Shown in pieces: positions 1 to 45,985 of a stretch of 47,123 bases of DNA; position 1 is the first letter of the stretch; every line of letters starts with the position of its first letter. The DNA comes from Nemertoderma westbladi. Lineage: Eukaryota > Animalia > Xenacoelomorpha. Where the stretch lies: the NCBI GenBank assembly GCA_032718475.1, contig JAUCBJ010005841.1, positions 1 to 47,123 on the forward strand, written 5' to 3'. The notes under the pieces were generated by a model. The model was not told the origin of the DNA, did not search any database, and saw only the letters and a program-made list of their open reading frames with translations. Made by a program: the position numbers and the translations under genes.

Positions 1-6
1 AAACCC

Positions 7-273: not shown

Positions 274-285
274 TTAATCGGCAAA

Positions 286-1539: not shown

Positions 1540-1587
1540 AATAATGTGAAAGAGTGAAGCAAACAAGTGTAAATCAATTTCTAGAAA

Positions 1588-24025: not shown

Positions 24026-24427
24026 CATGTAAAAACCCAAATCCACTATATGGATAAGGAATAACGTCAGTACGACTGGTGCAATATCGAAGGAGACACC
24101 TTTATTTGCAGCTTGTAGGTAATATAAAGAGCGAAAGCGACGTGAAACTAGAGACGAGGTGAACCCAGAAACTTAATGTGATTAAGATATTAACTATTTA
24201 ACTATTATTCTCCTTTCAATTTATAGAACAATTTGGGGGTGGGGGGTGGTGGGTCCCGGAAAACTGAATGAATTATGGATGACACTATATTTCAGATGAT
24301 TGGTTTAATATGGGTCTAAATCATTTTATATTGTTAACGACAAAAATTGTCATTTTGAAGCAATATATAAAGTTAAGGTTAAAAGTTATTTAATAACTTA
24401 AACAAAATATATATTTCGCATATTAGC

Positions 24428-24949
24428 AATAACTATTTACATACTTATGTGTAAAGTAGCACTTTACAGTGTGATGATCCGAGTGCTTTGTTACACGAAC
24501 GAGCGGAGTGAGTGAGTGAAAATAAAGCCACGAGGATCAGAACACTGTAAAGTACTTTGTAACAAGTATGTATGTAGTTTTATTCCAAAATTGTAACATT
24601 ACGAAATGATTGTATATATATTATAAGTGATAGAAACTGCACAAATTAAATTATTTGCTGTGTTAATAAATGTAAAAATGACATAAATTATATTATAAAA
24701 AAGTTAGCTTATATTTATGGTGGCGTTTGGAGCCATGTTATAATAATATAGCTAGGCCCTACTGGTTATTCTACCTGGCTGTCAGGCAATTAATAATCAA
24801 TACTAACTTTTGTTTCTGTGTCTGTGGTAACCATGAAGGCGTAACTGTAAAGTCGCCCTGTTGGGACATTACCACATAATAAAACACTAAATGTACAGGG
24901 CAATTCAATAGTGTAGGCCTAATGTCCTCTAAAGTTGTCAAGTGCTAAA
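24428..24949. repeat. Hairpin-forming dispersed repeat; 24844-24949 has an inverted copy at 39776-39864
   Basis: ACATACTT...ACTTTACAGTGTGATGATCC pairs with GGATCAGAACACTGTAAAGT...AAGTATGT; ACTGTAAAGTCGC.CTGTTGGGACATTAC...TAATGTCCTCTAAAGTTGT.AAGTGCTAAAT recurs inverted near 39800. Confidence 0.6.
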
Positions 24950-25077
24950 TGTTAATGCTAATGTTACAATTTTGGAATAAAGAAAGTAACAAAACAAAAC
25001 AAAACAATCCAAATAATTTAAGAAAATATATTTCCATAAACGTCTTAAGCATCATCTACTCATCTTCGAAACATCAA

Positions 25078-25408
25078 TCAATCCCCCCCCCCCCCATCCC
25101 TCTCATCCTCACCCCCCATTTTGAAGTCAAATGACCCTGGTTTGTTATTTTCTATTGCCCCACTTTCAGATGAATTAGCTGTCCCGGTTTCAGAAGAATC
25201 GATAGTCCCGGTTTCAACATTCCAACATTTAGAAGAGTGAACGGATCTCCGTTTCTTGAGTACCCAGTAAAGCGTTGATCTCGGAACATTGTGTTTCATG
25301 GCAGCCTCCACCACACCCATTCCATCTATCGTTACCGCTGTTACTGCTAACTCTATGGCCTCGTTCGTGTATTGTCTTCTGGGAAGTTCACCAAACCATC
25401 TCCATCTT
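25078..25408 (-). CDS. Alternative terminal exon V6: Pipsqueak-type HTH
   Basis: Acceptor TGTTTTAATTAG|A, phase 2; RQYTNEAIELAVTAVTIDGMGVVEAAMKHNVPRSTLYWVLKK; own stop. Confidence 0.75.
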
Positions 25409-25602
25409 CTAATTAAAACAATTATAACTGATAGAGTAATTTTAATGCGAACCAATTAATATATTGTAATGTAGATTATATATTATTATTAGTAATAAGT
25501 ATAGTCTTACCGTATTGTAAAATCTTGTATTTGCCTACGAATTTTTATTTTTTAATACAGTAGTTGTGGGTAAGATACAAAATGTAATAAAGTACGTTCC
25601 AC

Positions 25603-25790
25603 CTTGGTGTAGTGGTTTCATTGAATTCCCATATCTGCGGAGGTCGTGGGTTCGATCCCTGCATGGGGGCCAGTGCAGTTTTCGTTTCGGCATGAATGCT
25701 TTAAAGGGACTAGCCAGGTCGCCTATCTGCCTTGCATCCTTAAATGGTAGCTAAAATAGTAAATGGTAGCTGGAGTTCCTCTGGGGAGTA
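25603..25790 (+). mobile_element. tRNA-derived SINE relic
   Basis: A-box TGGTGTAGTGG and B-box GGTTCGATCCC at tRNA-like spacing, without a good cloverleaf. Confidence 0.5.
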
Positions 25791-26540
25791 TAGTTTTGGG
25801 AGGACCGCACTGAAAATAAGTCCAAACTTTGTGCGGCCCTGGCCTATCGGCCGAAGAAAATTTACTTTTTTTTACTTCGACCGCAAAGCATGACACCAAC
25901 GTAGAGTGAATGATGATACCCAATGCGTTGAGGTTTCGCTAAGTAACTGGCTCGCCCCACAAATATTGAAAATTGACAGAGTGAGAAATTGCAGGATTTT
26001 AATCAAAGAAGTCGGTAAAATATATATACGAAGTAAAACTCCACCAAAACTAACAAACTAACACTAATTAAAACTATTCAAGTAATACGACGAGGTGATA
26101 ATGTAATAATTTTTTTGTATGTTTCTGGCAATGTGATTTTGTTATAATTACCCAAAAATATGGAAGTTCGTAATACCACTGTACGCATGTGATTGGCTGT
26201 CTACCGATCGCATGGAATGGTTCAGCTACACATAACACATATTAAAGTTTCATTTCTGCACGCAATCAGCTGTTTATTCCGTCGATTGTCGCCCGGAGAG
26301 GGTTAATCTCAAGAATCCCGCCCTATGCAGTTTGAATAATGTCAATTGATTGAAATTGATACCAGTCGATAAATTTCAAATAGTTAATAGTAATAGTGCA
26401 GTATCCTTAGTTTGGCTTGACTGGACATCAAATTATTTAAAGTAAATATAAATTTAAACGCCATAGTAATAATACCTTGCACAACATACCGTACAGTAAG
26501 GTACACCAAGCAATCAATTGATTTAGAACCTGACTAACAG

Positions 26541-26781
26541 TTAGCTGGATTCCCCACCCCGATCGATTCGGCTACGATTACAGGAATCCCAATCTTTAGT
26601 CGTGTTTATTGCGCCGGGGTCCTTCAACCGAACTATCCGATACAATGTCATGTGGGGGATTTTGTAGAATTTCGCGGCCCGATATACGGAGAGCCGTCTC
26701 TCCGAGATGGCCCGCAATGCGTCAGCGACGTCGTCGTCTGTGTACTTCGGAGTCGATGTAATTGCGGAGTAGACAACAGGT
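26541..26781 (-). CDS. Alternative terminal exon V5: Pipsqueak-type HTH
   Basis: Acceptor TCTGTCCTTTGCAG|A, phase 2; KYTDDDVADALRAISERRLSVYRAAKFYKIPHMTLYRIVR; own stop. Confidence 0.8.
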
Positions 26782-26960
26782 CTGCAAAGGACAGACGATA
26801 TGATGGTGGAAGGGTTGCTAAAGTGTGTCACTATACCCCGTCTTACAGTGTATGTCTACTCCGTTCTACTGACTGTCTACCCATTCTACCGTGTCTGTCT
26901 CAGATTGGGGATAGGGGGAGGGGGGGGGGGGGGGGGGGGACTGGACGCAATAAAAAATCA

Positions 26961-27556
26961 TCCCTCTCCCGGGGAAATTGGACGCAAATAACAGTTGATT
27001 ACTCTCAAAAATAAAACTGTAACCTGTTCTATTGTATTTAGTTTATTGTTTTGGTTAAAATAACGTGCCACTGTAACCTGCTCCTTTCCCTAAATTGCCA
27101 ATGTAACATTGAGGTTGGGATATTAATTCGCCAAGATGGGATTTGCGTCCGTCCCATTATGATGACACGTAGTTATGCAAGGCATTACCATAGGCATACT
27201 GCCAATACAACCTTCATAATTAATTCCCCAGTTACACTATAATAAAATAACCAGCTCACGTCAAATGAGACGGACAGTCAGGCAGACAGACCTCATAATG
27301 ACATACCGGTCCGGTACCTACGATAACGTTTAGTTAATATCTACCAATCAGGATCTCCTACCAATAATTATCCCTCTCCATGGGAAAATCGACGCAAATA
27401 ACAGCTGATTACTCCTAAAAAATAAAACTGTAACCTGTTATGAGTTTCGTTTATTGTTTTGGTTACAATAACCCACCCCTGCAACCTACGCCTTTCCCCT
27501 AATTGATAATTTAACATTGAGACGATATGTTCATTCGCAGAGTTGGGATTTGCGTT
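26961..27556 (+). mobile_element. Two copies (26961-27149, 27371-27556) of a ~180-bp MITE-like dispersed repeat; further copies near 27930, 38749-38854 (inverted), 41808-41982, 42711-42900 (inverted), 45002-45122 (inverted)
   Basis: Shared core TTTATTGTTTTGGTTA.AATAAC...CTGTAACCTGCTCCTTTCCCTAAATTG; inverted motifs GACGCAAAT...ATTTGCGTC; often next to poly-G/C runs. Confidence 0.7.
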
Positions 27557-27726
27557 AAGTTTTCTCCCCATATTGATTTACTAACTAATCCCCCATCATA
27601 TCCTTCCTGTCTGTAGATGTGATACATACAAATGGCTGTCGATTTTAAATTCAATTGGATTTTCTACAATTTAATATGCGGGATATTTGAGAGCAACAAG
27701 TATCTGCATCCCGATATGCTTGGGCT

Positions 27727-27910
27727 GGGCGCCTGGCCTGCAACCAATTGGTTGTAGGTTCGAGCCTCGTCAGGGTCCAATCAACCTTTCACCTGGGGTC
27801 GATAAAATGAGTACCAGTTGAATTTCTGGGAGCAAAATTTGGGATAAGAGGAATAGCGCTCACCCCTACCTTCGGGTAGCAGCTATCGAAAGAGGAGCCT
27901 TTGGCTCCCT
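27727..27910 (+). mobile_element. tRNA-headed SINE relic with Deu/Nin-type central domain
   Basis: B-box GGTTCGAGCC followed by CAACCTTTCA...GGGGTCGATAAAATGAGTACCAG, which resembles the conserved Deu/Nin SINE core. Confidence 0.55.
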
Positions 27911-29748
27911 TAGAATATTGATAACTCTTGTTTATTGTTTTGGTTGCCCTTACCTGTCTCTATAACCTGTTCCTTTTTCTATAACATCACAGTTTGCAAC
28001 ACAAGTTAATTGAATAGCAAACACTCCGTCGTGTGTAATTCGACGAGCTACTGGGGGATGAAATGGAAAATTTCGTATCTCAAACTCGGGGCACAGTTTA
28101 ATATAATATAATTAAGTAATTCAAGACAAATTTATAATTACATGCCATAATTCAAACATTAACTAAATAACTAAGAAACTACTTTAACTATACTAACAGC
28201 TGCGTTAAAGTGCTTTTAATAACCCACTGAAAACATAAATATCACATTGTCAATGAAATAGGTTATTGTACGAAATTTGGCTGTTTTCTTGATGTTTTGA
28301 AAGACAAAAAATAATGTAAATGATTACATTTAGTGCGGTGAAACAAATCCCTCGGCTAATCGGAATTAGTGCACTGTGTAAAGTTCTACTTTACAACACG
28401 GACAGACACAAACATGTAAATAGTTATTAGATAATAGTAACACGTTTGTTACAAATAACTTTACTCTTACAAATAATATTTGATAATTAAAAGTGTGAAA
28501 GAACTACCGGTACTTTGTTTAAAATATATCAATAATGTAAACATTATGTAACACTGTAGGAGAAAACTAGGTTTGTACCGGTGATGTATAACTTTATACG
28601 GCGGGTCGCGGGTGAGAATAATTTATACGGCGGGTGAGAATCCAGTACCGTTTATAGGACACAGCATGAGTAAGGATCATTACCGGTACACTATGGGTAT
28701 ACAGATCAACTACCAATTACTTTCACTTTCTAGTTTAACAGTATGCTATATCGGGGCACTACATTAATAACCATAAAACTACTTGACATACAACTACGTT
28801 GAAACAGTATGTTAATGATATGCAGAGTTCTCGGTACCGCTAAGAGAAAGCAACACCATCTGTATACTTTCGCTCGTTAACATTCAACAGTAGATCTACT
28901 ATAATCAACTATAAAACGTTCACTAGAAATTAAATTAAAATTTTTACTTATAATTTTTATGAAATAAAACCTTTTCGTTAAATTAAATATAATAAAATAA
29001 CATACTTTAATTCGTAATCTAACACTTAAAAAGATACAGTCACAATGGCAATCCTCGCTTCTGGAAGTCAGATTTTAAAATGCCTAATAATTCAGTGAGA
29101 GATGATAAGATCTGAAGTAAATAGTTACTACTTTCCAGGTTTTATCAATGAACTGGAATTTACAAAATTCGCTTTAAAAAGAAGAAAAGTACAATATTTA
29201 AAAAATCTCAACCTATTAAACAACTCCATGATAACATTTATATACAAGTATTTTAATACATAAAATTAGTTTCCTTTAGCAATGAGCTAAACACCGTGAC
29301 AATGAGCAAGAAAAACACACAAACAATTTAAGAATAAAGAAAAACAAATCAATTTATGGTGACTTCGCGATGACCCTAGATGCCCCCAGATGTTCTACTT
29401 TCGGACAGATGAACTGATAACCAACCCTGTAAAACACACAATCAATAAGTCGCGAGTTGTTCAAAATTATCTTAGTTTTCTGTGTCATGAAATCCCGTTT
29501 ATTGGTCTCGCATGCGAAACCGAAACCGACATTTACTCTGCTTTTGTCCCAGAAAAATTTTCCCGGAATGTTTCTCCTTGGACAAGTTTCTCCTTATTGC
29601 CCTTCGAAGACAATTTACCCCCCCCCCCCCCCCCCCCCTCAAACGACAAATTTTGGAATGTGTTGATCTAGCTCAATGGTCACGAATCAATGACAACATT
29701 AAACATAAAACTATTCTTGAATCTACATTGATTATTTAAGAATTGACT

Positions 29749-30517
29749 TTATACGATATTGAATGACATATCAGTGATCTCCTCTGGGTGTATTATGATA
29801 ACTCCTTGTGGATCTTCTAACTGTACTTCATCATGAACCCTCGTCGACTGTGGTAGACTGCAGTCTATAACCACTGTATCGCCAACGCTCGGAAGAAAAT
29901 CTGCGGACGTATTAACAACCATGGCGGTGGATTTATTGGGGGCAATAGGAACCATTACCTTGGTAGGGGCTATCCTCGTGAGGTTAGAGTGACTCTCCGT
30001 GTTGCTAGGGATACTCAGAGTGTTGCTATGAGAGCTCGCCGAGTTGCTAGGAACCATCGTCAAGTTTCTAGGGACGATCGACAAGTTGCTAGGGACACTA
30101 ACGATCGCCTTGTTGTTAAGGACGCTCGCCCTGTTGCTAGGGACACTCACCACGATGCGAGAACCGCTCACCGCGTTACTATGGACGCTCATAACGTTGC
30201 TAGGGACGCCGACCGCGTTGCTACGGGCACCAACTGCCTTGTTAGCGACACTCACCCGGTTGCTAGGAACGCGGCCCGCGTTGCCAGGGCCGGTTGCTAC
30301 GCGACACGGGGGTTTCTTATTGAGGGCCTCCGGGCAGAGCTCGCGAACCCGGGCGTACAACGTCATCCGCGGGATCTGGTAGAACGCGGCTGCCTTGTGG
30401 GTGGTCAGCCGTCGCGTGGAAACGGACCAGACGGCCTGGTGGAGGGTCTCCTCGCTGTAGTTGGAGGACTGCCGGTGGTAGAAGCGTCTCAAGCGGCGAG
30501 AGCCGGAATCCGTCTTC
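29749..30517 (-). CDS. Alternative terminal exon V4: Pipsqueak-type HTH plus 7-aa repeat tail
   Basis: Acceptor TTTTCTCCACTGTTTCCCCCCAG|G, phase 2; NYSEETLHQAVWSVSTRRLTTHKAAAFYQIPRMTLYARVRELCPEAL; then 21-bp repeats encoding xSVPSNx; own stop. Confidence 0.85.
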
Positions 30518-31640
30518 CTGGGGGGAAACAGTGGAGAAAAGTGGAATGTTTATTTTCGCGAAATTAAACTATTTTATTATAAAGTTTAGAATTTAATTTA
30601 AGATATGAAAACTAACCCGATATTCTAAGCCCGCCTAATAAAACATTACTACAATTAATTTCCACTTTTCCCCACTGTTTAATAGATATAGGTGTCTGAG
30701 CTCACATTATGTCTACCAAAAATACGTTTTATTCAAAACAATCCAAATATTACTTTACTCCGCCGGCTTTATCGCAGACAATGAATAAATATCACTTTAT
30801 TTGACAATTAAATAAAATTAAAAAGGTTCCCTTATATTCTGAGGATATATCATTATGATATGAATGCATAAGGAACAGCTTGACAAAATTACAGGCAAAC
30901 AATTTAATCTAGCCATTATGTAATGGTAACAGGATAATTTATAAAGTAAATTAAAAATTGTACAATTTTTACTACAAGTAGTTAAGTAGCAGTACTGCAG
31001 TATGGCCGAGATGGGTTTTCATATGACAACCTGTAGTGTTCCGTTCGGCTACACAAATAGACCCAGGGTCGATATGGGTTACTCGTTATTTACTGCGGTA
31101 AACAGCGGCTAACCGCTCTCACGCGAGTCCTTATCAAATAAACCCACTTCGTCGTGATTCGTGAATACTTGTAAATATTCTATATTCACAGTCAATAGTT
31201 TAATTATTGACAAACATAAACCAGAAACACAGCCAGGTCATGGGTAACGAATTAAAATATATATAAGTCATATTTTACCGCCGTAGGCCTCCCGGTATCT
31301 ATGTAATTTGTATAATATAATTAAACCATAAGTTATAGTTATTGTATTTAATGCAAAGGTATCAATTATTAACAGCTCACCCCATCAAAATAAATTTGAA
31401 ACAAACACAAATAAAAAAACATTGTATATGCATACAGCACAATTACAAAATTGAATTGAATAAAATGCGAATTGCGAACCCAACAATAATTAAAGTCACC
31501 ACACTACAGTTCTGAGTCCGACCAATTAGACGTAACCAAAACCATTTCAGAATGTGGGTTCGCAGTAATACTTATTGGCATTTTTATTAAGGTGTAACGT
31601 TACATGGACGGGTGTGGATTGATTAAAAAAAATAAAATAA

Positions 31641-34600
31641 AAAATTAGGCATACTAGTTAACCAATAGAATAGAAAATTAGACATACTAGTTAACCAATA
31701 GAATAGAAAATTAGGCAAACTAGTTAACCAATAGAATATAAAATTAGGCATACTAGTTAACCAATAGAATAGAAAATTAGGCATACTAGTTAACCAATAG
31801 AATAGAAAATTAGGCAGACTAGTTAACCAATAGAATAGAAAATTAGGCATACTAGTTAACCAATAGAATAGAAAATTAGGCAGACTAGTTAACCAATAGA
31901 ATAGAAAATTAGGCATACTAGTTAACCAATAGAATATAAAATTAGGCAGACTAGTTAACCAATGGAATAGAAAACTAGGCATACTAGCTAACCAATAGAA
32001 TAGAAAATTAGGCAAACTAGTTAACCAATAGAATATAAAATTAGGCATACTAGTTAACCAATAGAATAGAAAATTAGGCATACTAGTTAACCAATAGAAT
32101 AGAAAATTAGGCAGACTAGTTAACCAATAGAATAGAAAATTAGGCATACTAGTTAACCAATAGAATAGAAAATTAGGCAGACTAGTTAACCAATAGAATA
32201 GAAAATTAGGCATACTAGTTAACCAATAGAATATAAAATTAGGCAGACTAGTTAACCAATGGAATAGAAAACTAGGCATACTAGCTAACCAATAGAATAG
32301 AAAATTAGGCATACTAGTTAACCAATATAATATAAAATTAGGCATACTAGTTAACCAATAGAATAGAAAATTAGGAATACTAGTTAACCAATAGAATAGA
32401 AAATTAGGCATACTAGTTAACCAATAGAATAGAAAATTAGGCAGACTAGTTAACCAATCGAATAGAAAATTAGGCATACTAGTTAACCAATAGAATAGAA
32501 AATTAGGCAGACTAGTTAACCAATAGAATAGAAAATTAGGCATACTAGTTAACCAATAGAATAGAAAATTAGGCATACTATTTAACCAATAGAATAGAAA
32601 ATTAGGCATACTAGTTAACCAATAGAATAGAAAATTAGGGAGACTAGTTAACCAATAGAATAGAAAATTAGGCATACTAGTTAACCAATAGAATAGAAAA
32701 TTAGGCATACTAGTTAACCAATAGAATAGAAAATTAGGCAGACTAGTTAACCAATAGAATAGAAAATTAGGCATACTAGTTAACCAATAGAATAGAAAAT
32801 TAGGCAGACTAGTTAACCAATAGAATAGAAAATTAGGCATACTAGTTAACCAATAGAATAGAAAATTAGGCATACTAGTTAACCAATAGAATAGAAAATT
32901 AGGCAGACTAGTTAACCAATAGAATAGAAAATTAGGCATACTAGTTAACCAATAGAATAGAAAATTAGGCAAACTAGTTAACCAATAGAATCTAAAATTA
33001 GGCATACTAGTTAACCAATAGAATAGAAAATTAGGAATACTAGTTAACCAATAGAATAGAAAATTAGGCAGACTAGTTAACCAATAGAATAGAAAATTAG
33101 ACATACTAGTTAACCAATAGAATAGAAAATTAGGCATACTAGTTAACCAATAGAATAGAAAATTAGGCATACTAGTTAACCAATAGAATAGAAAATTAGG
33201 CATACTAGTTAACCAATAGAATAGAAAATTAGGCAAACTAGTTAACCAATAGAATAGAAAATTAGGCATACTAGTTAACCAATAGAATAGAAAATTAGGC
33301 AGACTAGTTAACCAATAGAATAGAAAATTAGGCAGACTAGTTAACCAATAGAATAGAAAATTAGACATACTAGTTAACCAATAGAATAGAAAATTAGACA
33401 TACTAGTTAACCAATAGAATAGAAAATTAGGCATACTAGTTAACCAATAGAATAGAAAATTAGGCATACTAGTTAACCAATAGAATAGAAAATTAGGCAA
33501 ACTAGTTAACCAATAGAATCTAAAATTAGGCAGACTAGTTAACCAATAGAATAGAAAATTAGGCATACTAGTTAACCAATAGAATAGAAAATTAGGCAGA
33601 CTAGTTAACCAATAGAATAGAAAATTAGGCAGACTAGTTAACCAATAGAATATAAAATGAGGCATACTTGTTAACCAATAGAATAGAAAATTAGGCATAC
33701 TAGTTAACCAATAGAATAGAAAATTAGGCAGACTAGTTAACCAATGGAATAGAAAACTAGGCATACTAGCTAACCAATAGAATAGAAAATTAGGCATACT
33801 AGTTAACCAATATAATATAAAATTAGGCATACTAGTTAACCAATAGAATAGAAAATTAGGAATACTAGTTAACCAATAGAATAGAAAATTAGGCATACTA
33901 GTTAACCAATAGAATAGAAAATTAGGCAGACTAGTTAACCAATCGAATAGAAAATTAGGCATACTAGTTAACCAATAGAATAGAAAATTAGGCAGACTAG
34001 TTAACCAATAGAATAGAAAATTAGGCATACTAGTTAACCAATAGAATAGAAAATTAGGCATACTAGTTAACCAATAGAATAGAAAATTAGGCATACTAGT
34101 TTACCAATAGAATAGAAAATTAGGCAGACTAGTTAACCAATAGAATAGAAAATTAGGCATACTAGTTAACCAATAGAATAGAAAATTAGGCATACTAGTT
34201 AACCAATAGAATAGAAAATTAGGCAGACTAGTCAACCAATAGAATCGAAAATTAGGCATACTAGTTAACCAATAGAATAGAAAATTAGGCAGACTAGTTA
34301 ACCAATAGAATAGAAAATTAGGCATACTAGTTAACCAATAGAATAGAAAATTAGGCATACTAGTTAACCAATAGAATAGAAAATTAGGCAGACTAGTTAA
34401 CCAATAGAATAGAAAATTAGGCATACTAGTTAACCAATAGAATAGAAAATTAGGCAGACTAGTTAACCAATAGAATAGAAAATTAGGCAGACTAGTTAAC
34501 CAATAGAATAGAAAATTAGGCATACTAGTTAACCAATAGAATAGAAAATTAGGCAGACTAGTTAACCAATAGAATAGAAAATTAGACATACTAGTTAACC

Positions 34601-34645
34601 AATAGAATAGAAAATTAGACATACTAGTTAACCAATAGAATATAA
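31641..34645. repeat. 33-bp minisatellite, about 91 copies
   Basis: Unit AAATTAGGCA(T/G)ACTAGTTAACCAATAGAATAGA; rare variants recur in the same order, indicating block duplication. Confidence 0.98.
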
Positions 34646-34835
34646 TTGAGAATCAACAGACAAAATTGCCCGCGTATTATTTGCAGCAGTGGGGTGCCCT
34701 TCGATTCGCATAGTTTGTCAAAATGGGTAGTGGTACTGTATGTACAGACTACAGGTGCACCGACACACAACGTAAATATCTATTTAAGCTGCAGAGTCAT
34801 TATAAGTCAATATAGAAAACAAAATAGTAGGTAGT

Positions 34836-35097
34836 TTAGAATATCGAGTTAGTCAGTATCAGTTCCTTGTGAATCCGTTTGTTGTCTTCCCCTGACTTTG
34901 GTGGCCCCGGTGTGGGTTTCTTTAAAGCTTCCGGGCAGATCTTACGGATCTTCTTGTACAGAGTCTGTCGCGGCACGCCGTACCTCTTGGCCGCGAGGTT
35001 GGTGCAAACTCGCCGGTTGTAGACTGCAAGCACCGCCTCCTCCATGGTCGCCGCTGTGTACGTCGGTGTTGCCATAGAAACGCTCCGTCGTTGTTGC
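34836..35097 (-). CDS. Alternative terminal exon V3: Pipsqueak-type HTH
   Basis: Acceptor TTTTATTTTGCCTCCCAG|G, phase 2; TYTAATMEEAVLAVYNRRVCTNLAAKRYGVPRQTLYKKIRKICPEAL; own stop. Confidence 0.85.
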
Positions 35098-35390
35098 CTG
35101 GGAGGCAAAATAAAACAGGCAACTTACTTACCCGTCGCTTCGTACTTTATGTTCTGGGAATTTCAGATAGTGGCGCACATTTGGCCACATTTGAAAAAAA
35201 GTGATCTCAAGCGCAAATTGGTTTTAAATTAAATAAAGTTTTAAACCCTCGGGACTTTATTTAAAACTTTATACAACACCTCATTAAAAGAATGAAAACA
35301 ATGGACATATATCACAGATAACAATTCGAAGTCCATAAATTTTTTCTTATAAATTAATTATTATTATCCAAAAAACATTTAGTGAGTTAA

Positions 35391-36525
35391 AGTAGTAAAC
35401 TCAGGTTGTATCGCGAGTAGTAAACTCAGGTTGTATCGCGAGTAGTAAACTCAGGTTGTATCGCGAGTAGTAAACTCAGGTTGTATCGCGAGTAGTAAAC
35501 TCAGGTTGTATCGCGAGTAGTAAACTCAGGTTGTATCGCGAGTAGTAAACTCAGGTTGTATCGCGAGTAGTAAACTCAGGTTGTATCGCGAGTAGTAAAC
35601 TCAGGTTGTATCGCGAGTAGTAAACTCAGGTTGTATCGCGAGTAGTAAACTCAGGTTGTATCGCGAGTAGTAAACTCAGGTTGTATCGCGAGTAGTAAAC
35701 TCAGGTTGTATCGCGAGTAGTAAACTCAGGTTGTATCGCGAGTAGTAAACTCAGGTTGTATCGCGAGTAGTAAACTCAGGTTGTATCGCGAGTAGTAAAC
35801 TCAGGTTGTATCGCGAGTAGTAAACTCAGGTTGTATCGCGAGTAGTAAACTCAGGTTGTATCGCGAGTAGTAAACTCAGGTTGTATCGCGAGTAGTAAAC
35901 TCAGGTTGTATCGCGAGTAGTAAACTCAGGTTGTATCGCGAGTAGTAAACTCAGGTTGTATCGCGAGTAGTAAACTCAGGTTGTATCGCGAGTAGTAAAC
36001 TCAGGTTGTATCGCGAGTAGTAAACTCAGGTTGTATCGCGAGTAGTAAACTCAGGTTGTATCGCGAGTAGTAAACTCAGGTTGTATCGCGAGTAGTAAAC
36101 TCAGGTTGTATCGCGAGTAGTAAACTCAGGTTGTATCGCGAGTAGTAAACTCAGGTTGTATCGCGAGTAGTAAACTCAGGTTGTATCGCGAGTAGTAAAC
36201 TCAGGTTGTATCGCGAGTAGTAAACTCAGGTTGTATCGCGAGTAGTAAACTCAGGTTGTATCGCGAGTAGTAAACTCAGGTTGTATCGCGAGTAGTAAAC
36301 TCAGGTTGTATCGCGAGTAGTAAACTCAGGTTGTATCGCGAGTAGTAAACTCAGGTTGTATCGCGAGTAGTAAACTCAGGTTGTATCGCGAGTAGTAAAC
36401 TCAGGTTGTATCGCGAGTAGTAAACTCAGGTTGTATCGCGAGTAGTAAACTCAGGTTGTATCGCGAGTAGTAAACTCAGGTTGTATCGCGAGTAGTAAAC
36501 TCAGGTTGTATCGCGAGTAGTAAAC
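35391..36525. repeat. 25-bp minisatellite, about 45 apparently identical copies
   Basis: Unit AGTAGTAAACTCAGGTTGTATCGCG; one degenerate copy follows at the right edge. Confidence 0.98.
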
Positions 36526-36576
36526 GCAAATTGTGTAAGGGTGAGTTGTAAACGATAGATGTAAACAACTAAACAC

Positions 36577-37003
36577 TAGTGTTTAAACGGGATCAGACGT
36601 TTCGAGAATTCCGGGATCGGGACCGGGATTATCACTCTCGGGATCCCGATTTTTGGGACTGGGATCGCAATTTTGAATTAAATGACTCAAAGTTATTAGT
36701 ATATGTGGCGGCCTTTGGGTAACACTAACTTTATCTTACACTTCTGAAATAGTAGTACGATTAATTTATATTAAAATTATTTTGCAATAAATTGATTACT
36801 GGATGGTTTACTGACATAAAAATTCGATATAATCAAAACATTTCCGTTCGGCTGGAACTATTTTATCGAATATTCAACAAACCTACTTAATTATATTTAC
36901 TTATATATCCCGTTCCAAAAAAGTTGGGATCGGGACCGGGATTGCATTATTCCGATTCGCCGGGATCCCGGATTTTCGGGATCGGGGTCCCGTTTAAACA
37001 CTA
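36577..37003. mobile_element. hAT-like MITE
   Basis: TIRs TAGTGTTTAAACGGGA...TCCCGTTTAAACACTA; subterminal CGGGATC/GATCCCG repeats; flanks CTAAACAC / CAAACAC resemble a degenerate 8-bp TSD. Confidence 0.75.
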
Positions 37004-37478
37004 CAAACACGCTACACTTAGCGAGTCGATAGAAATACGCCCGTGAGAGTCGTGTCGTTGTAGTGGTTAGTGTGTAGCAGTGCAGTACAGATAATGATAA
37101 CTGACGTAAACATTCAATAACGAAGTGTACCAAACTTACTGAACATAATTAAACCACAATTAGCCCCGGAACATCAAATATTATCAACTAACTTATGTTT
37201 TCGAAAATCACAATATAGTACGAGATGCTATAATTAATTCATTGCGATAAATATTATAATAAATAGAAATATCTTTATTAATATGCGGAGGACATGAAGA
37301 TAAATATTTAACAAATTGACACGCTGCTGTAAGTGTATTTCAATTCAATCACACGTATTTCCCGCCAAATTTCGGTATTTCCGGCAAAGTTTTATAGGTT
37401 CCGCCAAATTTCCGTCCATTCGCCACCACACTTTGTTTCTATAGTTTTCACCAGATTTCCGCGCAATACGCGAACGGA

Positions 37479-37704
37479 TTACTTCCGGAGGGATTGTTTC
37501 CTTCCGACGCGTATCCCGATCCCCGACTTCCAGCGCAAGGCTTCGGGGCAGACCTTACGAACTTTCTCGTACAAAGTCATCTGGGGTATAACGAACACCC
37601 TGGCCGCGATGTAGGTGGAGAGTTTACCGCTCGCGATGGCGCGAACAGCCTCGTCTAGAGTGGCCTGGGTGTAGGTCGAGGGACGTCGAGGCGGGGTTGG
37701 GCGC
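37479..37704 (-). CDS. Alternative terminal exon V2: Pipsqueak-type HTH
   Basis: Acceptor TTTTTTGCATCTCAG|G, phase 2; TYTQATLDEAVRAIASGKLSTYIAARVFVIPQMTLYEKVRKVCPEAL; own stop. Confidence 0.85.
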
Positions 37705-39267
37705 CTGAGATGCAAAAAACATGCAGCATATAAACACAAAAAAACACTTTATTTTATACCAATTATATACTTGATATATTATAACACCCAACTTAAATGT
37801 GATGTATTTTTCTTTACCATGAATTATACTTTTTCTGATATTAAATTTTAGTTAAGATATGCAGGCTCAGGATAAAGAAGGATCTGCTTACAGACTGCTT
37901 AAACGAACCAAACCAACAAACCAAGAGTTAGGAATTTAGGTTCAGATTTTCAGTTCAGAGGAAATTTAAAAAGGCATAAGGATAGTTAGGTTCAGAGAAA
38001 GTTTAATTTCGGGTCCGAAAATTTTATTTCAAGCTAAATCTATCTCATATCTTCTTGAATAATTCCGATTGTATTTTTTACACTCATTTTATATCTTTAG
38101 ACTATATTATTTATTATAAAATGTCTGCGTAATTAGAGTACGCGAGTGTGTATGGGTATGGGCCATCCATACCGTAATAACTTCCAACGACCAATATCAA
38201 CGAACGAACGCACGAATTCTTGAAATAAAACAACGTTTTAAAACAATAATTTACATACGGTATATGGATGGATGGGACAGGACAACGAGCACAGCACAAA
38301 GAATAAATAGATACAAATTACGATAAAATAAATTATTACAGCAACAAAGGTTGCATCGTGTGAATAACGAAGCATCTTAAATTGTTGAGTAGAAAAATTT
38401 TACTTTTTATAACAAAAATAAAAATATGGCTCTAACAATTTAAGCAATCATGAATCATTCTTCCAAGAATTAGTATGCTGTATCCGAATGGTGGCGGGTA
38501 CATCACATTCTGGAATAAACCAATCCAATAAATAACGCACCCAAAAATAAATGAAACAAATATCATAGCACCCCAAAATACAACATTATTTTGAAAAAAA
38601 AAAAAAAAATTACAATACACTACTATAACTTTTACCTCTACACAATACAAACAACCCAACGGAATAATATAATACGAGTGGAATAATTGAATATTTCGAG
38701 ACAGTGGGGGGGGGGGGGGGGGGGGGGTACAAGGGAAAAGAGCATGATACAGTGGCACGTTATTCTAACCAAAACAATAAACGAAAGTCAAGCTAGAACA
38801 TGTTTACAGTATTATTTTGGAGAGTAATCAGCTGATATTTGCTTCGACTTTCCCAATGTCCCCCCCCCACCCCCCCCCCCCCCCCCCCCCCCCCTGAATA
38901 TTTCAGTACTTAAGAATACTGCAATTAGAAAATACTGACAATTAGAGAATACTGACAATTATTTAAGAAAACAATCAATCCGTTATCGGGTAAGCAAATT
39001 ATAAAAGTATATCTAGAATGACAGTAAGGGGCAACCGTGAGTACTGTAGTTCCCCGCCGGTTGTTTACCGCAGTTCCGATACGGTGTGGCATTCAACTCA
39101 AGTGATATTGAAAGAATCATTCCTTGTACAATTGAACACCGCCACGCCAATTTTATTGTTAACGAAAACCAGCAAAATATAATGAGAAGAGTATTAAGTT
39201 CAATTCAGAACAATTTAATTTATTTTTGCAGTGAACCGCGGTTCCGATTATTTAGGAATACATTGCT

Positions 39268-39496
39268 CTATGGCATTGTGGTGAATTCCGTTCCGGCAGT
39301 TTGCTGACGTTTCCGAGAGCACGCCCGGACTGCTTCCGGGCAGTGTTTCCGAACCCAAGCGTAAAGCGTCATCGGGGGAATACGATATAACTTTGCGGCG
39401 GCGTTGGTAGAGAGTTTACACGTTGCCACGGCGTCAACGGCTTCGTATAAAGTCGCTTTGGAGTAAGGAGCAGTGGTGATCGAGGACTTTCTTTGC
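39268..39496 (-). CDS. Alternative terminal exon V1: Pipsqueak-type HTH
   Basis: Acceptor TTTTTTGCCTCTCAG|G, phase 2; PYSKATLYEAVDAVATCKLSTNAAAKLYRIPPMTLYAWVRKHCPEAV; own stop; AATAAA on the minus strand shortly downstream. Confidence 0.85.
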
Positions 39497-41612
39497 CTGA
39501 GAGGCAAAAAATGGGCAACTTAGGGGGCGTTTATAATATACAAGCAATTGGGCAACTTATGAGGGACTAATATTTTAGTAAAGTAATGTTTTAGATAAAA
39601 ATAAATTAACGTTATATCAGTCTTATTATATTTCAGCTATATTTAATATGAAACAAATTCAACATCTACCATAAACACACCAAATGTAAATAATATTACA
39701 CCAAGCGGTGTGTTACACAGAAGGAGGGAGGAATTGTGAAATTAACATGCTCCCTTGTATTAACAGCGAATTGTTATTTAGCACTTTACAACTTTAGAGG
39801 ACATTACAGCCCATACATTCATATTATTATGTTGTGTAATGTCCCAACAGAGCGACTTTACAGTGCATCCGTTCAATGAAAGTGATCCTGAAACCTGGGA
39901 TCGCCAAATTGGTATTTATACAGTAGTACACGCACAAGTACGCAGCAACTTCGATCCGGCTCAGTACCGGCTCAGTACCAACACTGCGGGTTGAACCACA
40001 GCGAGTCTTAGCGTAATAATTTCACCCCAGACTGTCTGAAAGGCACGAAATAAATTAAACAAATTGGTTTAGAACTGGAGTTTCCCGCCCCGATGGTTTT
40101 AATTCTTTTAATTTTTTTTACAAGTTACTTAGTTACAATTACAGATACAAAACTAACAATCTATATTAATATTAATTAGGCCTACCCTAACTTCATTGAA
40201 GACTACATTGCAGTCAGCATGTTACCCTTAGCTCAGGCTTACAGCATTACACCGCATGTCCTGGAGTATATAGTGTCGTAATTCAGTGACACTGAAAATT
40301 TGGGGGGGGGGGGGGGGGGGGGCTAAATTTTCTACAAATCGTAATGAGATTGCATGAAATTTGAAACAGAGATAGTTTCATCTCCCTCCTTCTTGCTGGA
40401 TGAGCCAGAACTTTTATTTTTGCTTTCATTCTTTAGCTACAAGCGTTTAAAAAAAGTGTCTCCATCAATATTGCGTCAGTCGCACTGCAGTTATTTTTCC
40501 AACCTTATAGAGATTTATTGGTACTAGTGGAAAGCTGACCGTGCAAGGATTCCAAATATGTAAAAATATTTGAATTTGGTTGGGAAATAGCTGAGATATG
40601 GGCATTGGAATTTTGCATGTATTTGCTTCCGCTGCGGGCCATTTATTCTATTTAATAAACAATATTCTGGTAGATTTTGTTAAACTAATAAGTAGCTTGG
40701 CAACAATGCAATGCCTGTGATAATAATACTAGTAATCTCATTAAGATTTGTAGATTAATTTGGGGGGGGGGGGGGGGGGGTTGGGGGGTGGCGTGTCACT
40801 GGATTACGACATTCCAGGATATGGTGTACAATTTCTCATCGAGGCCACCGACCAAAGCACAAAATCGTGCACTGGATGGTCCTCACGGCGAAAGCAATAT
40901 CCTGCAAAGCGGAGGCGGCTCCGCTCAAGTGTGAAAATAGCTCGCCCTCTAGCGGATAGATATATAAGAATTTCTATACCATTAAACTTCAGTCAGGACT
41001 CAGGAGTCATTAGTGCACCGTAACTTTAGGTGATGACAGCGCTGCTGTGCCCAACATTTTTCGTACCACATGCTTCACATGTTTCCGTGTTTACTGAAAG
41101 ACATTTCAGCTTATCTGTTTATAGTTTCTTTATTCTGATCACATGTATTCAGATATTATTATACATAAACATACTTCAGTTTTGTATTTACTTTATTCTG
41201 TTATTCTCTATAAGATGTGCGTTAGCGATCAATATTACTGTATTAACTCAGTCAATCACAGGCTAACACCGTACTTCCGGACTGTTGATTCCTATAGCGC
41301 GTGTGGTCGTCACATCAATCAAGTGCCAAGCTTAAGAGGTCGAAATGGGACACATCCAATGCCCGAAAAAGGCTGGATAGATGGAGACAATTTATTGATG
41401 AATTGACTTGTAACCAACTTACCATTTTATTGAAATATTCTGAATTGTAAACCAACTTATAATGCTAACACATATAACCAACGCATCCGTGCTGCTTATA
41501 GACTAACTTACCCATTAAATTGTTGTGCAATTGGTGACCAAACTGAGATGATATTGTAACACCTTGAACTTACCAATTTATAGTAACTATAAGTACCGGT
41601 AACGTAACTTAC

Positions 41613-41722
41613 CCTTTATTAGGTGTATCCTGACTTGTAGCGACTTGGGTTGTTGAAGATTGGTTTGTACTACTGCTGTAACTTCCTGCAGAACCAATTT
41701 GGGGGGCAATTCTTTGCAAACC
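41613..41722 (-). CDS. Constant coding exon 3 (Ser/Thr-rich linker) carrying the shared donor
   Basis: Acceptor TTATTTTCAG|, 110 nt, GLQRIAPQIGSAGSYSSSTNQSSTTQVATSQDTPNK, ends AAA GG|GTAAGT (phase 0 in, phase 2 out). Not in the ORF track. Confidence 0.7.
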
Positions 41723-42385
41723 CTGAAAATAATTGAATATTTCAACTGTTAGATAACCCTAATGTTTCAATACGGTAAGAATCAATACTCAAATTCAGAA
41801 AGGTTTAGGGGGACGCAGCAAACTTCGCCCGCGAGCAATCTTCGCCCTCAAAATGAGTGATAACAACCTCTTTTATTGTTTTGGTTAGAAAAAATCGTCT
41901 CTGTAACCTATCGTGTCTGTAACCTGCTCCTTCCCCCCAATCGGGCGAAAATTTCCCGCGGGCGAAGTTTGCACGTGCACCCAACCAGATTTAGACAATT
42001 CGAAACCCCAAAAATGTGCCCAACGGCGAATGTGAAAGACGAATTTTGAAAATTGAAAATTTCAGGTTATGCATTAACTGCTGAATATTGATAGTTTTCA
42101 TGTGGAGCGACAGACCTGATGTCGTCGACTTCTGTAGTTTCGAAGTTTGAGACGAAATACTAGGGTTACAAAATTTGGGGAACAGATTCGTAACTCCTGT
42201 ACAACATCGGGTCGTTTGTCGTATTTAATTCCGAGTTGTCCTCAATGTTGGTTAAATTCAGATCAAAGTCCTCGGAGGGTAATATTAATGAGTTATCGTT
42301 TAATGGTTGCGAGTCGAGATTCATAGGTTCTGTGACTGAGTTGGAACACTGGTTGTCGGTACTTATTCTCTTCTTTAACGAATAC

Positions 42386-42539
42386 CTCGGGATTACCGGA
42401 AGATGGAGCTGTCGTGGTAGGGGGGTTTAGGAATAGTTGGGGCGCCGTGGACTGGAATGTAGACGGATTGTACTGGGGGGCAGTTATCGGACGCCCTCTA
42501 CCGCCCCTCTGTAAAACTGTCGATCCTCTTCGTAAAAAC
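42386..42539 (-). CDS. Constant coding exon 2 (AT-hook-like RGRP motif)
   Basis: Acceptor ACTTTTTCTAG|G (phase 2), FLRRGSTVLQRGGRGRPITAPQY...GNPE, donor GAG|GTATTC (phase 0); 154 nt. Confidence 0.6.
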
Positions 42540-43041
42540 CTAGAAAAAGTATTAGTATATAAGAATGAGAAAGTAGACAATTAAATCAAATGATCTATTA
42601 AAATTATAGATTGCTTGTTTGTTTCAAAGCAAGCATTGCAACAATAAATACACAATGCAATGTTTGGTTAAAAAAAAAGGGGAAGGGGGGGGGGGGGGGG
42701 GGGGGGCTCAAAACCCATCTTGGCGAATTAATATCCCGCCTCAATGTTAAATTCTCAATTTAGGGAAATGAACAGGTTACAGTAGCACGTTATTCTAACC
42801 AAATGTTGTTCTAAACAGAACTCAATAGAACAAACAGTCTGTTTCATTTTTGGGAGTAATCACTAATCAGCTGTTATTTGTGTCGAATTTCCCTTCCCCC
42901 TGGAAAGGGATGAATTTATATTGCGCCAAAAGACCCCCCCCCCCCCTCCCCCAATCTGCTAACTGCAGCTTGCTACAAATACAAATACAAACCAATAGCA
43001 ACATGTGGGTGGACCAATCATATAACAGTACAACAACAAAC

Positions 43042-43520
43042 CTTGATCTACCGCCAATGAACGGGGAGGCTGTATTCCTGTGACGCAGACTGGAATACGG
43101 TTGTTTAGCGATGTAGGACGATGGGTGAGGGGGAGGGGCGCTTCTCGGCAATATGGGAGGATTGAATCGGTAGGGGGACGAGACGTAGGGGGAACTAGAA
43201 GCTACCGCAGTCGCACTCGGAGGGGGGATGGATGCGTGGGATGTGTTACCGGTACGTAATAAACTGAATGCTGGTTCGATGTTAGGGGTACGTGGCGTAC
43301 CGGTCTCGTTGCCTAGGAGCTTCTGTAACCAGGCTGTTATTTGTCCTGCTGTACAATTAGCAGTGACGAACTCGTCTAAAAAACCGGAATCATTCTTTAG
43401 GTAATCTATGAGAAAGGACCTCATAAATGTCCCATTCTCCAAACAAATGTTTATAAAAGTTGATTTTGATATTAGAAACGCTGACGTTAAATCAACGGGA
43501 AGAATAGGTCCCTGTACCAT
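43042..43520 (-). CDS. Constant coding exon 1 (start codon, ~70-aa helical domain, Pro/Ser-rich region)
   Basis: GCCACCATGG Kozak context at 43520; acceptor CTCCTGCTAG at 43531-43532 implies an upstream UTR exon (donor-like GTAAG near 43920 and 43980); donor AAG|GTTTGT (phase 2). Confidence 0.7.
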
Positions 43521-45985
43521 GGTGGCTGTTCTAGCAGGAGTTGAAATATTAATATAAGTTTATTATGGAATATTACAAAGTAAAAAATATACCAGGTTAC
43601 AAAAGCAAACAAATGTTTATTTGTTGTACTAACAAATAAATAATATGAAGTAATAATTATCAGCAGTAAACAGTATTAAGTAAATCGAAGTACAATTAAT
43701 ATAATTACCTCACGTGAAATTAAATTTATTTTTTTTGTCAGTTACCGGTAGACTATAAATAAATTTAGTCTATATTATATTCTTTGATATTTTAATTTGT
43801 ATAACATAAGAAACTACTTATAAAACTACAATCTTCGTTTATAAAAGTAGATTGTAGTTTAATAAAATTAAATGAAGAGCTTTTTCCGAATAATTAGGCA
43901 CTAATCCTGAAAACACTTACCGAGAGTAGAATTTGTCATACTTTTATAAAAAAGAGATTTCGTTTTAAAAATAGTCTTACCACTCTTGTTACCGGTAGTT
44001 TTATAGAATTTTATTCCAGTTTCAGTACATACCAGCATACTTCCGTATGTATTTTTTTACCACTAATTTCCATACTTGAGAGTTTTGTATATTTTTTTAT
44101 TATTATTTCTCTCCACATAATATAAATATTGAATCTGTTCCGAGGCAAACCAATATACTACCATATTACAACAGGCTGACAGGTAATTAATGTTCACTCA
44201 TATTTATTTTGATAGTGCAGGTAACGTACATTATATATATGTACATAAATATTTATTTTATTTACCGGTAGTATACAGTGTCATTCATTAGTAGTAAAGT
44301 ACTGCTACACTAGTACATAAATACCGGTACCAATGATGAACAAGAAATATTTAGTTGAGATATGAGACTGGAGTACTACATGCTCAACGGCCGTATATAT
44401 TATTCCCACCAATATTGGTTCTGGGAGCTGAGCTGAGTTACCACTGTTGTACTGAAGGGTAAACGTATGGCAGCACCAGATAGTACTGTATGTTAAGTCC
44501 ACTGGAGGGTTATTGGATGTCCGGTCCATCCATAGCTGGGTGGCATATACACTATATACAGTGTAGATTGGACGTACTGTGTGTGTTGTGTTATCCATTC
44601 CATTCACTTAACCTACTGTATCAGTGTAATAGTACTGCCTGGGTACAACAGTGCTCAGGCATACGTATCAGCCTTCCTATTGGCTGATCTGTTGGAGCAT
44701 AGCTGGAACGAAAGTGGCTTTATTACCATGAAGGTAATGGGGGCATTGCAAGGTACAGTACCTTCAACTCATATTGCTGGGTACCTACCTACCTACAATA
44801 TACCATTAAGTAATTGTATACCTACTGTTGTACTGGGCCAGGGCAATAAAGCATTTTACTTTGTATGAGTCACTATTGGGACTACTGAAATGCAGCCTGG
44901 CCAGCTTATTTATTACCTGTCCTATTACAATTATTATTTTTCTAAAAAGTTTGGAAATTTAAACATGAGGGGGGGGGGGGGGGGGGGGGTGGGAGAAACA
45001 TGACGCAAATCCCATCTCGGCGAATTAATATCTCCTGTCAATGTTAAATTATCAATTTAAGGAAAACGGATCAGTTTACGTACAGTTACAGTATGTTACA
45101 GTGGTAGTTATTCTAACCAAAAGCAAGTACCCCCCCCCCCCCCCCGCATCTGTTAGGTTGAGAATTTGTGAATAATTAAGAGGTTATAGCGCCAGCTATT
45201 TTCATTCCAGTGGGACTAAATTGGGATAAAAGCGGTATAATAACAGTCGTACAGTATGTATATATATATATAAATATATGTATATGGTAAACTTAAGTAT
45301 GACTTATGACAATGTAGGAATGCAAACATATGTATACCTGTACCAAATCATCACCAGGATGTGTTACACATACCTCCACGCTCCACCCACTGTTTATGTG
45401 GTGCTTGGTTTTGGTAATATATTGTTACCGATTTTGTACAATGGCGGAACCGAACTACAGTAACTGTATTATCTTTTAACCTATCTATGCGCGTGAAATG
45501 AAATATCTCCAGCATAGTGAAATTTTGGAAAAAAAAATTCTTACAAATGGTTACCTTGTTTCTACAGTATGTCAATCTATAGATGGTGTGGTCTTGTTGT
45601 GGTTGAGTATTATTAGTTCATATTTCTTATTCTAATCAAGGACTTCTAGAAAATAGTATTTATTCTACAAATAAATAAAATACATTGTTTTGGAAGTATT
45701 TGTTCTAATCTAAATCTAATATGATGCTATATAATATAATATGGCTAACCCTGTTGATAACGAAAAATATTAACCGGCGCTACAGTAGGTAGTACTGAAC
45801 TTAGCATGGATTATTAAGACTTTACTAGAACATTATATTTTTTAATTATGTTCTAGAATAGTGTAATATTTATATTTTGTTCTAGAACTCTAAAATGTTG
45901 CCATGGTAACAATGATTTATATTGTAAAAATGTAGCGCTATACGAAAATGTTGGCATTAGTGTGGCCTGGGTGCCCACTTTTTGT

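What the first reader, a model, noticed from the sequence alone, without database searches (positions are those of the whole stretch)
25078..43530. Gene with a constant N-terminus and an array of six mutually exclusive Pipsqueak-HTH terminal exons
Seen: six short minus-strand ORFs over ~14 kb each encode a Psq-type HTH (Y..xxxxAVxAV...S...AA..Y.IP..TLY). None needs its own ATG; each starts at a pyrimidine-tract/AG acceptor (first exon bases 39496, 37704, 35097, 30517, 26781, 25408), all in phase 2, and each has its own stop. Upstream, a Kozak-ATG exon (43520-43042), exon 42539-42386 and exon 41722-41613 join in frame and end in a phase-2 GG|GTAAGT donor, so all six cassettes join in frame through a Gly codon. 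Established: Drosophila mod(mdg4), lola, fruitless and broad splice a constant BTB region to alternative zinc-finger 3' exons. Inference: this is an independent version using Psq HTH cassettes on a non-BTB body, giving one locus several DNA-binding specificities. I do not recognise it as a described gene.
Basis: partly seen in the sequence, partly recalled or inferred. Interest (0 to 1): 0.92.

Follow-up and report, generated by a model that had tools for sequence, protein, structure and literature searches.

The report
Gene with six swappable DNA-binding ends
This gene, likely from an animal, has six separate intact DNA-binding (helix-turn-helix) end pieces in a row and likely splices one shared front end onto any one of them, a design known from fly genes such as lola but here on a front end with no known relatives; no RNA data were listed to prove the splicing.

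Summary
The anatomy is confirmed; the splicing is untested. Six minus-strand cassettes pass Pfam's HTH_psq cut-off (6 of 6). Each opens behind a phase-2 acceptor and has its own stop, and all join in frame to the phase-2 donor at 41613. Cassettes 1-5 are old duplicates under purifying selection (pS 0.69, pN 0.35). No transposase or BTB domain lies nearby, and good donors for serial splicing are missing. The shared 247-aa front has no homologue but carries PVDLT and LQKLL, the CtBP-type and NR-box motifs that go with the Psq domain in LCoR/E93. Three extra donor-like GGTAAGTT sites follow the shared donor, echoing the U1-binding motif of mod(mdg4). Weak points: no RNA run or genome was available, exon 3 does not score as coding, and cassette 6 is divergent with a weaker acceptor. 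Best reading: a likely LCoR/E93-like regulator with six alternative last exons. The design is known from arthropod BTB genes, and this scan noted it before on other DNA (BTB-Psq arrays, a non-BTB zinc-finger array). New variant of a known kind.

The parts
43042..43520 (-). Shared coding exon 1 (ATG in GCCACCATGG; a candidate acceptor at 43530 suggests an upstream exon); helical 75-aa head, then a Pro/Ser-rich stretch
   Evidence: only GCCACCATG in the window; no homologue; model pLDDT 44
43485..43499 (-). PVDLT, a PxDL[S/T] CtBP-type motif (aa 8-12)
   Evidence: 1.0% of shuffles of the 247 aa hold such a motif
43314..43328 (-). LQKLL, an LxxLL NR-box motif (aa 65-69)
   Evidence: 9% of shuffles; both motifs together 0.07%
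42386..42539 (-). Shared exon 2 (holds an RGRP AT-hook-like core at aa 174; weak donor)
41613..41722 (-). Shared exon 3, ending in the strong phase-2 donor AGG|GTAAGT
   Evidence: top 0.14% of GT sites; the frame that ends in phase 2 is open; codon score no better than background
41415..41574 (-). Three further GGTAAGTT donor-like sites (41574, 41512, 41423), all behind an in-frame stop; candidate U1 decoys
   Evidence: 0 of 20000 local shuffles give three; 7-8 matches to the U1-pairing consensus
39268..39496 (-). Cassette 1: phase-2 acceptor, Psq HTH, stop
   Evidence: model pLDDT 84, top PDB row LCoR HTH 2COB
37479..37704 (-). Cassette 2: phase-2 acceptor, Psq HTH, stop
34836..35097 (-). Cassette 3: phase-2 acceptor, Psq HTH, stop
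29749..30517 (-). Cassette 4: phase-2 acceptor, Psq HTH, tail of 21-nt repeats, stop
26541..26781 (-). Cassette 5: phase-2 acceptor, Psq HTH, stop
25078..25408 (-). Cassette 6: weaker phase-2 acceptor, divergent Psq HTH (PRSTL type), stop; least certain member

Best explanation
One transcription-factor gene likely splices its shared three-exon front, from the donor at 41613, to any one of six intact Psq helix-turn-helix last exons, which would give six proteins with a common predicted corepressor-recruiting front and differing recognition helices. Shown by the sequence and calls: six intact cassettes, common phase, own stops, purifying selection, differing recognition-helix residues, and the two short motifs. 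Inferred: that the junctions are made, most likely in cis by competition of acceptors and cleavage sites; that the front recruits CtBP and nuclear receptors as LCoR/E93 do; and that the six ends prefer different DNA sites. The array likely arose by tandem duplication of one exon with its acceptor (cassettes 1-5), with cassette 6 possibly captured separately. The extra donor-like sites may hold U1 snRNP near the shared donor and so help transcription reach the far cassettes (untested).
For: Frames and splice signals. HTH_psq in 6 of 6. Best solved relative is the LCoR HTH by sequence (E 8e-7) and top row by fold (TM 0.67 but E 0.16). Over 10 pairs of 46 codons among cassettes 1-5: mean pS 0.69, pN 0.35, identity 0.59/0.71/0.40 at codon positions 1/2/3. 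The last 16 intron bases are 59% alike, the 48 before them 22-32%. Five of six cassettes have no in-frame ATG before the HTH. The donor at 41613 is the nearest strong upstream donor at the end of an open phase-2 exon. No phase-2 donor scoring above 0.03 bits lies behind any HTH. No DDE, CENP-B or BTB match in 150 of 154 other minus-strand open segments of 36 aa or more between 19000 and 47123. PVDLT plus LQKLL arise together in 0.07% of shuffles; NR box and CtBP motif accompany the Psq domain in E93/LCoR (PMC6155025, PMC12897451, passages). Recognition-helix starts differ: PPMTLYAW, PQMTLYEK, PRQTLYKK, PRMTLYAR, PHMTLYRI, PRSTLYWV.
Against: The front has no homologue to confirm its exon borders. 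A small codon model scores exon 1 at 0.05, exon 2 at 0.11 and exon 3 at -0.32 bits per codon against a background of -0.23 +/- 0.26, far below cassettes 1-5 (0.39-0.69). Donors of exons 1 and 2 are weak. The frame is open through an acceptor just before the ATG, so the front may be longer. Cassette 6 scores 0.06 in the codon model and has a weak acceptor. Cassette 3 has its own ATG and a strong donor 34 nt upstream. Cassette 3 has no AATAAA or ATTAAA within 1.5 kb of its stop. The motif test was run after seeing the motifs, on a family chosen from the HTH match.
Confidence: 0.65

Rival explanations
1. Same six isoforms, but made by trans-splicing as in mod(mdg4) and lola: the front is one transcript, the cassettes are transcribed from their own promoters, and the donor-like cluster behind exon 3 recruits U1 to drive the joining.
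For: Three extra GGTAAGTT sites within 190 nt of the shared donor, 0 of 20000 local shuffles. They match the first seven letters of the mod(mdg4) TSA core (GGURAGU) and lie in the proximal last common intron, the part that determines trans-splicing there (PMC4387717 passages; PMC13490949 abstract and sections 4, 23).
Against: They match the U1-pairing consensus at 7-8 positions, below the 9 bp criterion of PMC4387717. That paper notes that introns often hold pseudo-donors. All six cassettes lie on the same strand in order, so cis-splicing suffices. Strong donors lie upstream of cassettes 3 and 5. The cluster could be a decayed mini-repeat, although its downstream flanks share only 18-27%.
Confidence: 0.12
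2. The front continues upstream of the window with a known domain such as a Tramtrack-type BTB, making this an ordinary arthropod BTB gene with alternative Psq ends.
For: An acceptor at 43530 leaves the frame open into the ATG. Only 3.6 kb of upstream DNA is visible. The nearest Atlas clusters for cassette 2 are mostly arthropod HTH_psq proteins, at a lead-only score of 0.84. Earlier notes report such loci (unchecked).
Against: The ATG sits in the only GCCACCATG of the window. No BTB match upstream within the window. Of 12 upstream donors, 11 have at most 18 open codons in the joining frame and one has 41, with no family match.
Confidence: 0.12
3. The cassettes are unrelated to the upstream exons: a tandem row of small independent genes or relics of pogo/CENP-B-type transposase ends.
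For: Psq HTH domains derive from transposases (PMC1702500 passage). The front is poorly supported as coding. Cassette 3 could be read from an upstream ATG over a 34-nt intron. Copy number in the genome could not be tested.
Against: Purifying selection with saturated silent sites. Similarity confined to the coding part and acceptor, no shared flanks. No transposase domain in the flanking frames. Five of six lack a start codon before the HTH, and convincing private first exons were not found.
Confidence: 0.07
4. The cassettes are spliced in series into one protein with several Psq repeats, as in Pipsqueak or E93.
For: Psq domains often occur in tandem (E93 has two, PMC6155025). Cassette 4 holds strong internal donors.
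Against: Joining needs a phase-2 donor behind each HTH. Cassette 1 has no donor scoring above zero; those in cassettes 2, 4, 5 and 6 behind the HTH are phase 0 or 1; cassette 3 has only a 0.03-bit one.
Confidence: 0.04

Closest known systems
Drosophila lola, mod(mdg4), broad, fruitless (Tramtrack-group BTB genes with alternative 3' DNA-binding exons)
   Same: Constant 5' part and a row of alternative last exons each encoding a DNA-binding domain (PMC11426971 passages and section 9; PMC1702500 passages).
   Different: No BTB domain found here; the ends are Psq HTH, not C2H2 or FLYWCH fingers; six ends against 20-31; all on one strand; trans-splicing untested.
LCoR / E93 / Mblk-1 family
   Same: Psq HTH whose best solved relative is LCoR; an LxxLL box and a PxDL[S/T] motif in the non-DNA-binding part (PMC6155025, PMC12897451, PMC5343783 passages).
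   Different: No sequence homology outside the HTH. The alignment of cassettes 1-5 retrieved no family member at E 0.001, whereas true members are highly conserved in RHF2. One HTH per isoform chosen from six is not described in the passages read. The LCOR locus also encodes PALI1 (PMC9122586 passage); that this is by a different last exon is recalled.
Drosophila PGRP-LC, CG42235, pipe (tandem 3' cassettes chosen by docking site/selector RNA pairing)
   Same: Tandem 3' cassettes spliced to one common exon (PMC6191721 sections 5, 12, 14).
   Different: Not transcription factors; a docking site was not shown here (P 0.23).
pogo/CENP-B-type transposase N-terminal HTH
   Same: Related fold; weak transposase-HTH Pfam rows for cassettes 1 and 6 below cut-off.
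   Different: No second HTH, DDE domain or shared flanks; purifying selection.

Membership tests
Pfam HTH_psq (PF05225) | Score above the gathering cut-off | tested here: met
   6 of 6, 26.1-33.8 bits against 20.4
Pfam HTH_psq (PF05225) | Three-helix HTH fold | tested here: met
   Cassette 1 model pLDDT 84 with helices 6-17, 23-30, 34-44; top row 2COB, TM 0.67, rmsd 1.7, E 0.16
Tramtrack-group BTB genes (lola, mod(mdg4)) | N-terminal BTB domain | tested here: not met
   No BTB match in the three shared exons or in 150 upstream and intervening segments; DNA beyond the window not seen
Tramtrack-group BTB genes (lola, mod(mdg4)) | Row of same-phase alternative last exons encoding DNA-binding domains | tested here: met
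   By anatomy only
Tramtrack-group BTB genes (lola, mod(mdg4)) | Isoforms shown by cDNA or junction reads | not testable with these tools
   No RNA run could be laid on the locus
mod(mdg4)/lola trans-splicing | Pseudo-donor pairing 9 bp or more with U1 in the last common intron | tested here: not met
   Three pseudo-donors, 7-8 matching positions each (criterion from PMC4387717)
mod(mdg4)/lola trans-splicing | Cassettes with their own promoters or on the opposite strand | tested here: inconclusive
   All six on the gene's strand; promoters not testable
LCoR/E93/Mblk-1 | NR box (LxxLL) | tested here: met
   LQKLL aa 65-69; 9% of shuffles
LCoR/E93/Mblk-1 | CtBP motif (PxDLS-type) | tested here: met
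   PVDLT aa 8-12; 1% of shuffles; that PVDLT binds CtBP in KLF3 is recalled, not read (searches found no paper)
LCoR/E93/Mblk-1 | Orthology: highly conserved RHF2 domain and placement in the family tree | tested here: inconclusive
   32% identity to LCoR over 43 columns; no family member retrieved; no tree with family members was built
Docking site/selector 3' cassette systems | One intronic site pairing with a selector before each cassette, conserved across species | tested here: inconclusive
   Best combined window P 0.23 against 75 decoy segments; no related species to test conservation
pogo/CENP-B transposase fragments | Adjoining CENP-B HTH or DDE domain, shared flanks or inverted repeats | tested here: not met
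pogo/CENP-B transposase fragments | High copy number in the genome | not testable with these tools
   No genome held

The most novel reading that the evidence does not exclude
Probability: 0.12. Interest if true: 0.85.

Novelty: new variant of a known kind. Interest (0 to 1): 0.56.

Why it matters
Swappable DNA-binding ends are treated in the papers read as a trait of arthropod Tramtrack-type BTB genes. A compact six-cassette locus on an unrelated front would show that the design arises repeatedly, and it would let one test how duplicated HTH exons gain new DNA targets. If the pseudo-donor cluster is functional, it offers a second, independent system for the open question of how a shared donor chooses among distant last exons, in cis or in trans.

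Tried and rejected
No genome is held. No RNA holder was listed for 35000-43700 (no evidence either way). Homologue searches for the front found nothing: 33 candidates, none at E 0.001, among proteins of 280-2000 aa; 0 hits among 1.84 billion representatives; 324 pattern matches, none confirmed; Atlas best 0.77. The cassette alignment found 0 of 7393 candidates at E 0.001; cassette 2 found 0 of 597 in metagenome contigs. The single-sequence model of the front was poor (pLDDT 44) and its fold search gave best Z 3.4: no verdict. A dimer prediction for the front was never run. Docking-site idea: first target-shuffle tests looked positive for the 75 nt before cassette 1 (1, 3 and 0 of 100 shuffles for cassettes 2, 3, 5; 18 and 21 of 100 for 4 and 6), but an unbiased scan of 198 windows against 75 decoys gave P 0.23; not supported. 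The inverted pair that brackets the array extends to 109 nt at 74% with gaps and looks like a dispersed repeat. TAAGTTG is not enriched window-wide (10 found, 10.5 expected). No Rfam match. The dN/dS rows for cassette 1 were off by one codon and were redone. The neighbouring pathogen-related gene did not fix the lineage: named hits were algae, starfish and an ostracod at 44-60%. Exact look-ups of three window proteins found none. Paper searches for a described gene of this kind listed none; subscription journals and bioRxiv supplements are not covered.
Full report
Observation. Three minus-strand exons (43520-43042, 42539-42386, 41722-41613) join into 247 codons plus two bases and end in AGG|GTAAGT. 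Each of six downstream acceptors continues in frame to its own stop, giving proteins of 323, 322, 334, 503, 327 and 357 aa. All six cassettes pass the Pfam HTH_psq cut-off, and a profile of the six finds no seventh in the window. Cassette 1, folded with the alignment of cassettes 1-5, gives a three-helix HTH at pLDDT 84. The best solved relative is the LCoR HTH, by sequence profile (E 8e-7) and as top fold row (TM 0.67, E 0.16).

More than chance. Cassettes 1-5 have acceptors as good as the best 93 of 2298 minus-strand AGs, each 31-58 nt before the conserved Tyr and each in phase 2. A random point has such a site in a given phase 4% of the time, though the five are duplicates and not independent. 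Over 10 pairs of 46 codons, silent sites are near saturation (mean pS 0.69) while replacement sites are not (pN 0.35), and third positions are least conserved. The last 16 intron bases are 59% alike and the 48 before them 22-32%. So the exons and their acceptors were kept long after duplication. Cassette 6 has a weaker acceptor, a low codon score and a long branch; it may have been captured separately.

Rival layouts. Serial splicing needs a phase-2 donor behind each HTH; the only one found scores 0.03 bits. Transposon relics should show a second HTH, a DDE domain or shared flanks. I gave Pfam 150 of the 154 other minus-strand open segments of 36 aa or more between 19000 and 47123 (the four left out lie between 19162 and 20061); six had weak, unrelated rows below cut-off and none matched a transposase or BTB family. 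Plus-strand segments were listed but not scanned. Self-comparison shows likeness between cassettes only in coding DNA. Five of six cassettes have no ATG before the HTH. Cassette 3 is the exception, and it also has a strong donor 34 nt upstream with a 19-codon ATG frame before it.

The shared front. It has no detectable relative and no usable model. Its support as coding sequence is modest: a small codon model gives 0.05, 0.11 and -0.32 bits per codon for exons 1-3 against -0.23 +/- 0.26 for background, and the first two donors are weak. In its favour, the ATG lies in the window's only GCCACCATG, and the frame of exon 3 that ends in phase 2 is open. The front holds PVDLT at residues 8-12 and LQKLL at 65-69; shuffles give both in 0.07% of cases. 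An NR box and a CtBP motif accompany the Psq domain in E93 and LCoR (PMC6155025 and PMC12897451, passages; PMC5343783, passages). I looked for these motifs after the HTH match pointed to that family, so the figure is indicative. That PVDLT itself binds CtBP in KLF3 is recalled. An acceptor at 43530 leaves the frame open into the ATG, so an upstream coding exon outside the window cannot be excluded.

How one end may be chosen. The simplest route is ordinary competition among acceptors and cleavage sites; five of six cassettes have AATAAA within 500 nt of the stop, but the motif is common here (1.5 per kb). Three more GGTAAGTT sites follow the shared donor within 190 nt; 0 of 20000 local shuffles give three, their downstream flanks are unrelated, and all lie behind an in-frame stop. 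In mod(mdg4) and lola a U1-binding pseudo-donor in the last common intron promotes trans-splicing (PMC4387717, passages), within a proximal 600-bp region of redundant motifs (PMC13490949, abstract and sections 4 and 23; PMC6237743, abstract). The sites here match the U1-pairing consensus at 7-8 positions, short of that paper's 9 bp, so this is a lead. A docking-site model as in PGRP-LC (PMC6191721, sections 5, 12, 14) was tested and not supported overall (P 0.23). One pairing, between the DNA just before cassettes 1 and 2 (-26.7 kcal/mol), ranked first of 80 segments for those windows.

Comparison. The design is that of lola, mod(mdg4), broad and fruitless, which PMC11426971 (passages and section 9) ties to arthropod Tramtrack-type BTB domains; see also PMC1702500 and PMC4528330 (passages). 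This locus works like them by anatomy but fails the BTB test inside the window. It resembles LCoR/E93 in domain and motifs, but orthology is not shown. Seven paper searches listed no description of a non-BTB gene with alternative Psq ends; the library lacks most subscription journals. Unchecked notes of this scan describe arthropod BTB genes with alternative Psq ends, a probable annelid family with zinc-finger ends on an unnamed front, and an Islet gene with alternative homeoboxes. None matched this sequence. The lineage of the window could not be fixed; an animal is inferred from the Psq domains, the introns and the BEL/Pao element.

Verdict. A real, selected array of six Psq last exons behind one shared donor, most likely alternative last exons of a single regulator gene (0.65 in cis on a non-BTB front; about 0.89 for any form in which the cassettes are alternative ends). 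New variant of a known kind. Interest 0.56, held down by the known design and by the untested junctions.

Noticed in passing
window 42366-42169 (-): A 66-codon acidic, protein-like frame starts just behind the weak exon 2 donor, shifted by one base from the exon 2 frame; possibly a decayed or alternative extension of exon 2. Codon score -0.09, no Pfam match.
   Followed up: partly
window 35191-35098 (-): A 19-codon ATG frame ends at a very strong phase-2 donor (CGG|GTAAGT, 35132) only 34 nt before the cassette 3 acceptor; too short an intron for most animals, possibly a blocking site.
   Followed up: partly
window 39552-39524 and 37790-37758 (-): The intron ends before cassettes 1 and 2 can pair over about 24 bases (-26.7 kcal/mol), which would loop out cassette 1; not significant after the full scan.
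   Followed up: yes
window 39776-39864 and 24844-24950: An inverted pair (31 nt at 97%, 109 nt at 74%) brackets the whole cassette array; a second inverted pair (40433-40659 and 23903-24122) is nested outside it. Probably dispersed repeats.
   Followed up: partly
acceptors 42539, 41722 against 39496-26781: The two shared-exon acceptors have a canonical branch-point-like motif within 45 nt; cassettes 1-5 do not.
   Followed up: no
window 29992-30289 (-): The tail of cassette 4 is built of 21-nt (7-aa) repeats and holds three strong phase-0 donors.
   Followed up: no
window 31631-34642 and 35391-36525: Two satellites inside the array: 33 nt x 91 (95% matches) and 25 nt x 45 (100% matches), flanking cassette 3.
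   Followed up: no
window 17633-18481 (-): Intronless 'pathogen-related protein'-like gene, 283 aa; 175 relatives at E 1e-30, the named ones from algae, starfish and an ostracod.
   Followed up: partly
window 3342-10410 (+): BEL/Pao-type retrotransposon with overlapping gag and pol frames (DUF1759, Peptidase_A17, integrase zinc domain).
   Followed up: no
window 1-2007 (+): A 417-aa ORF with no Pfam match and a 139-aa ORF weakly like adenovirus-type protease (E 0.002); resembles a Polinton/Maverick-type element (recalled).
   Followed up: no
window 12025-13398 (+): Several overlapping 80-150 aa ORFs of unknown kind; the one scanned had no Pfam match.
   Followed up: no
window 46203-47092: An 890-nt palindromic element with 314-nt arms, 89% complementary; other short repeat families recur at 26921-27568, 38732-38855, 42668-42952 and 44959-45122.
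   Followed up: no
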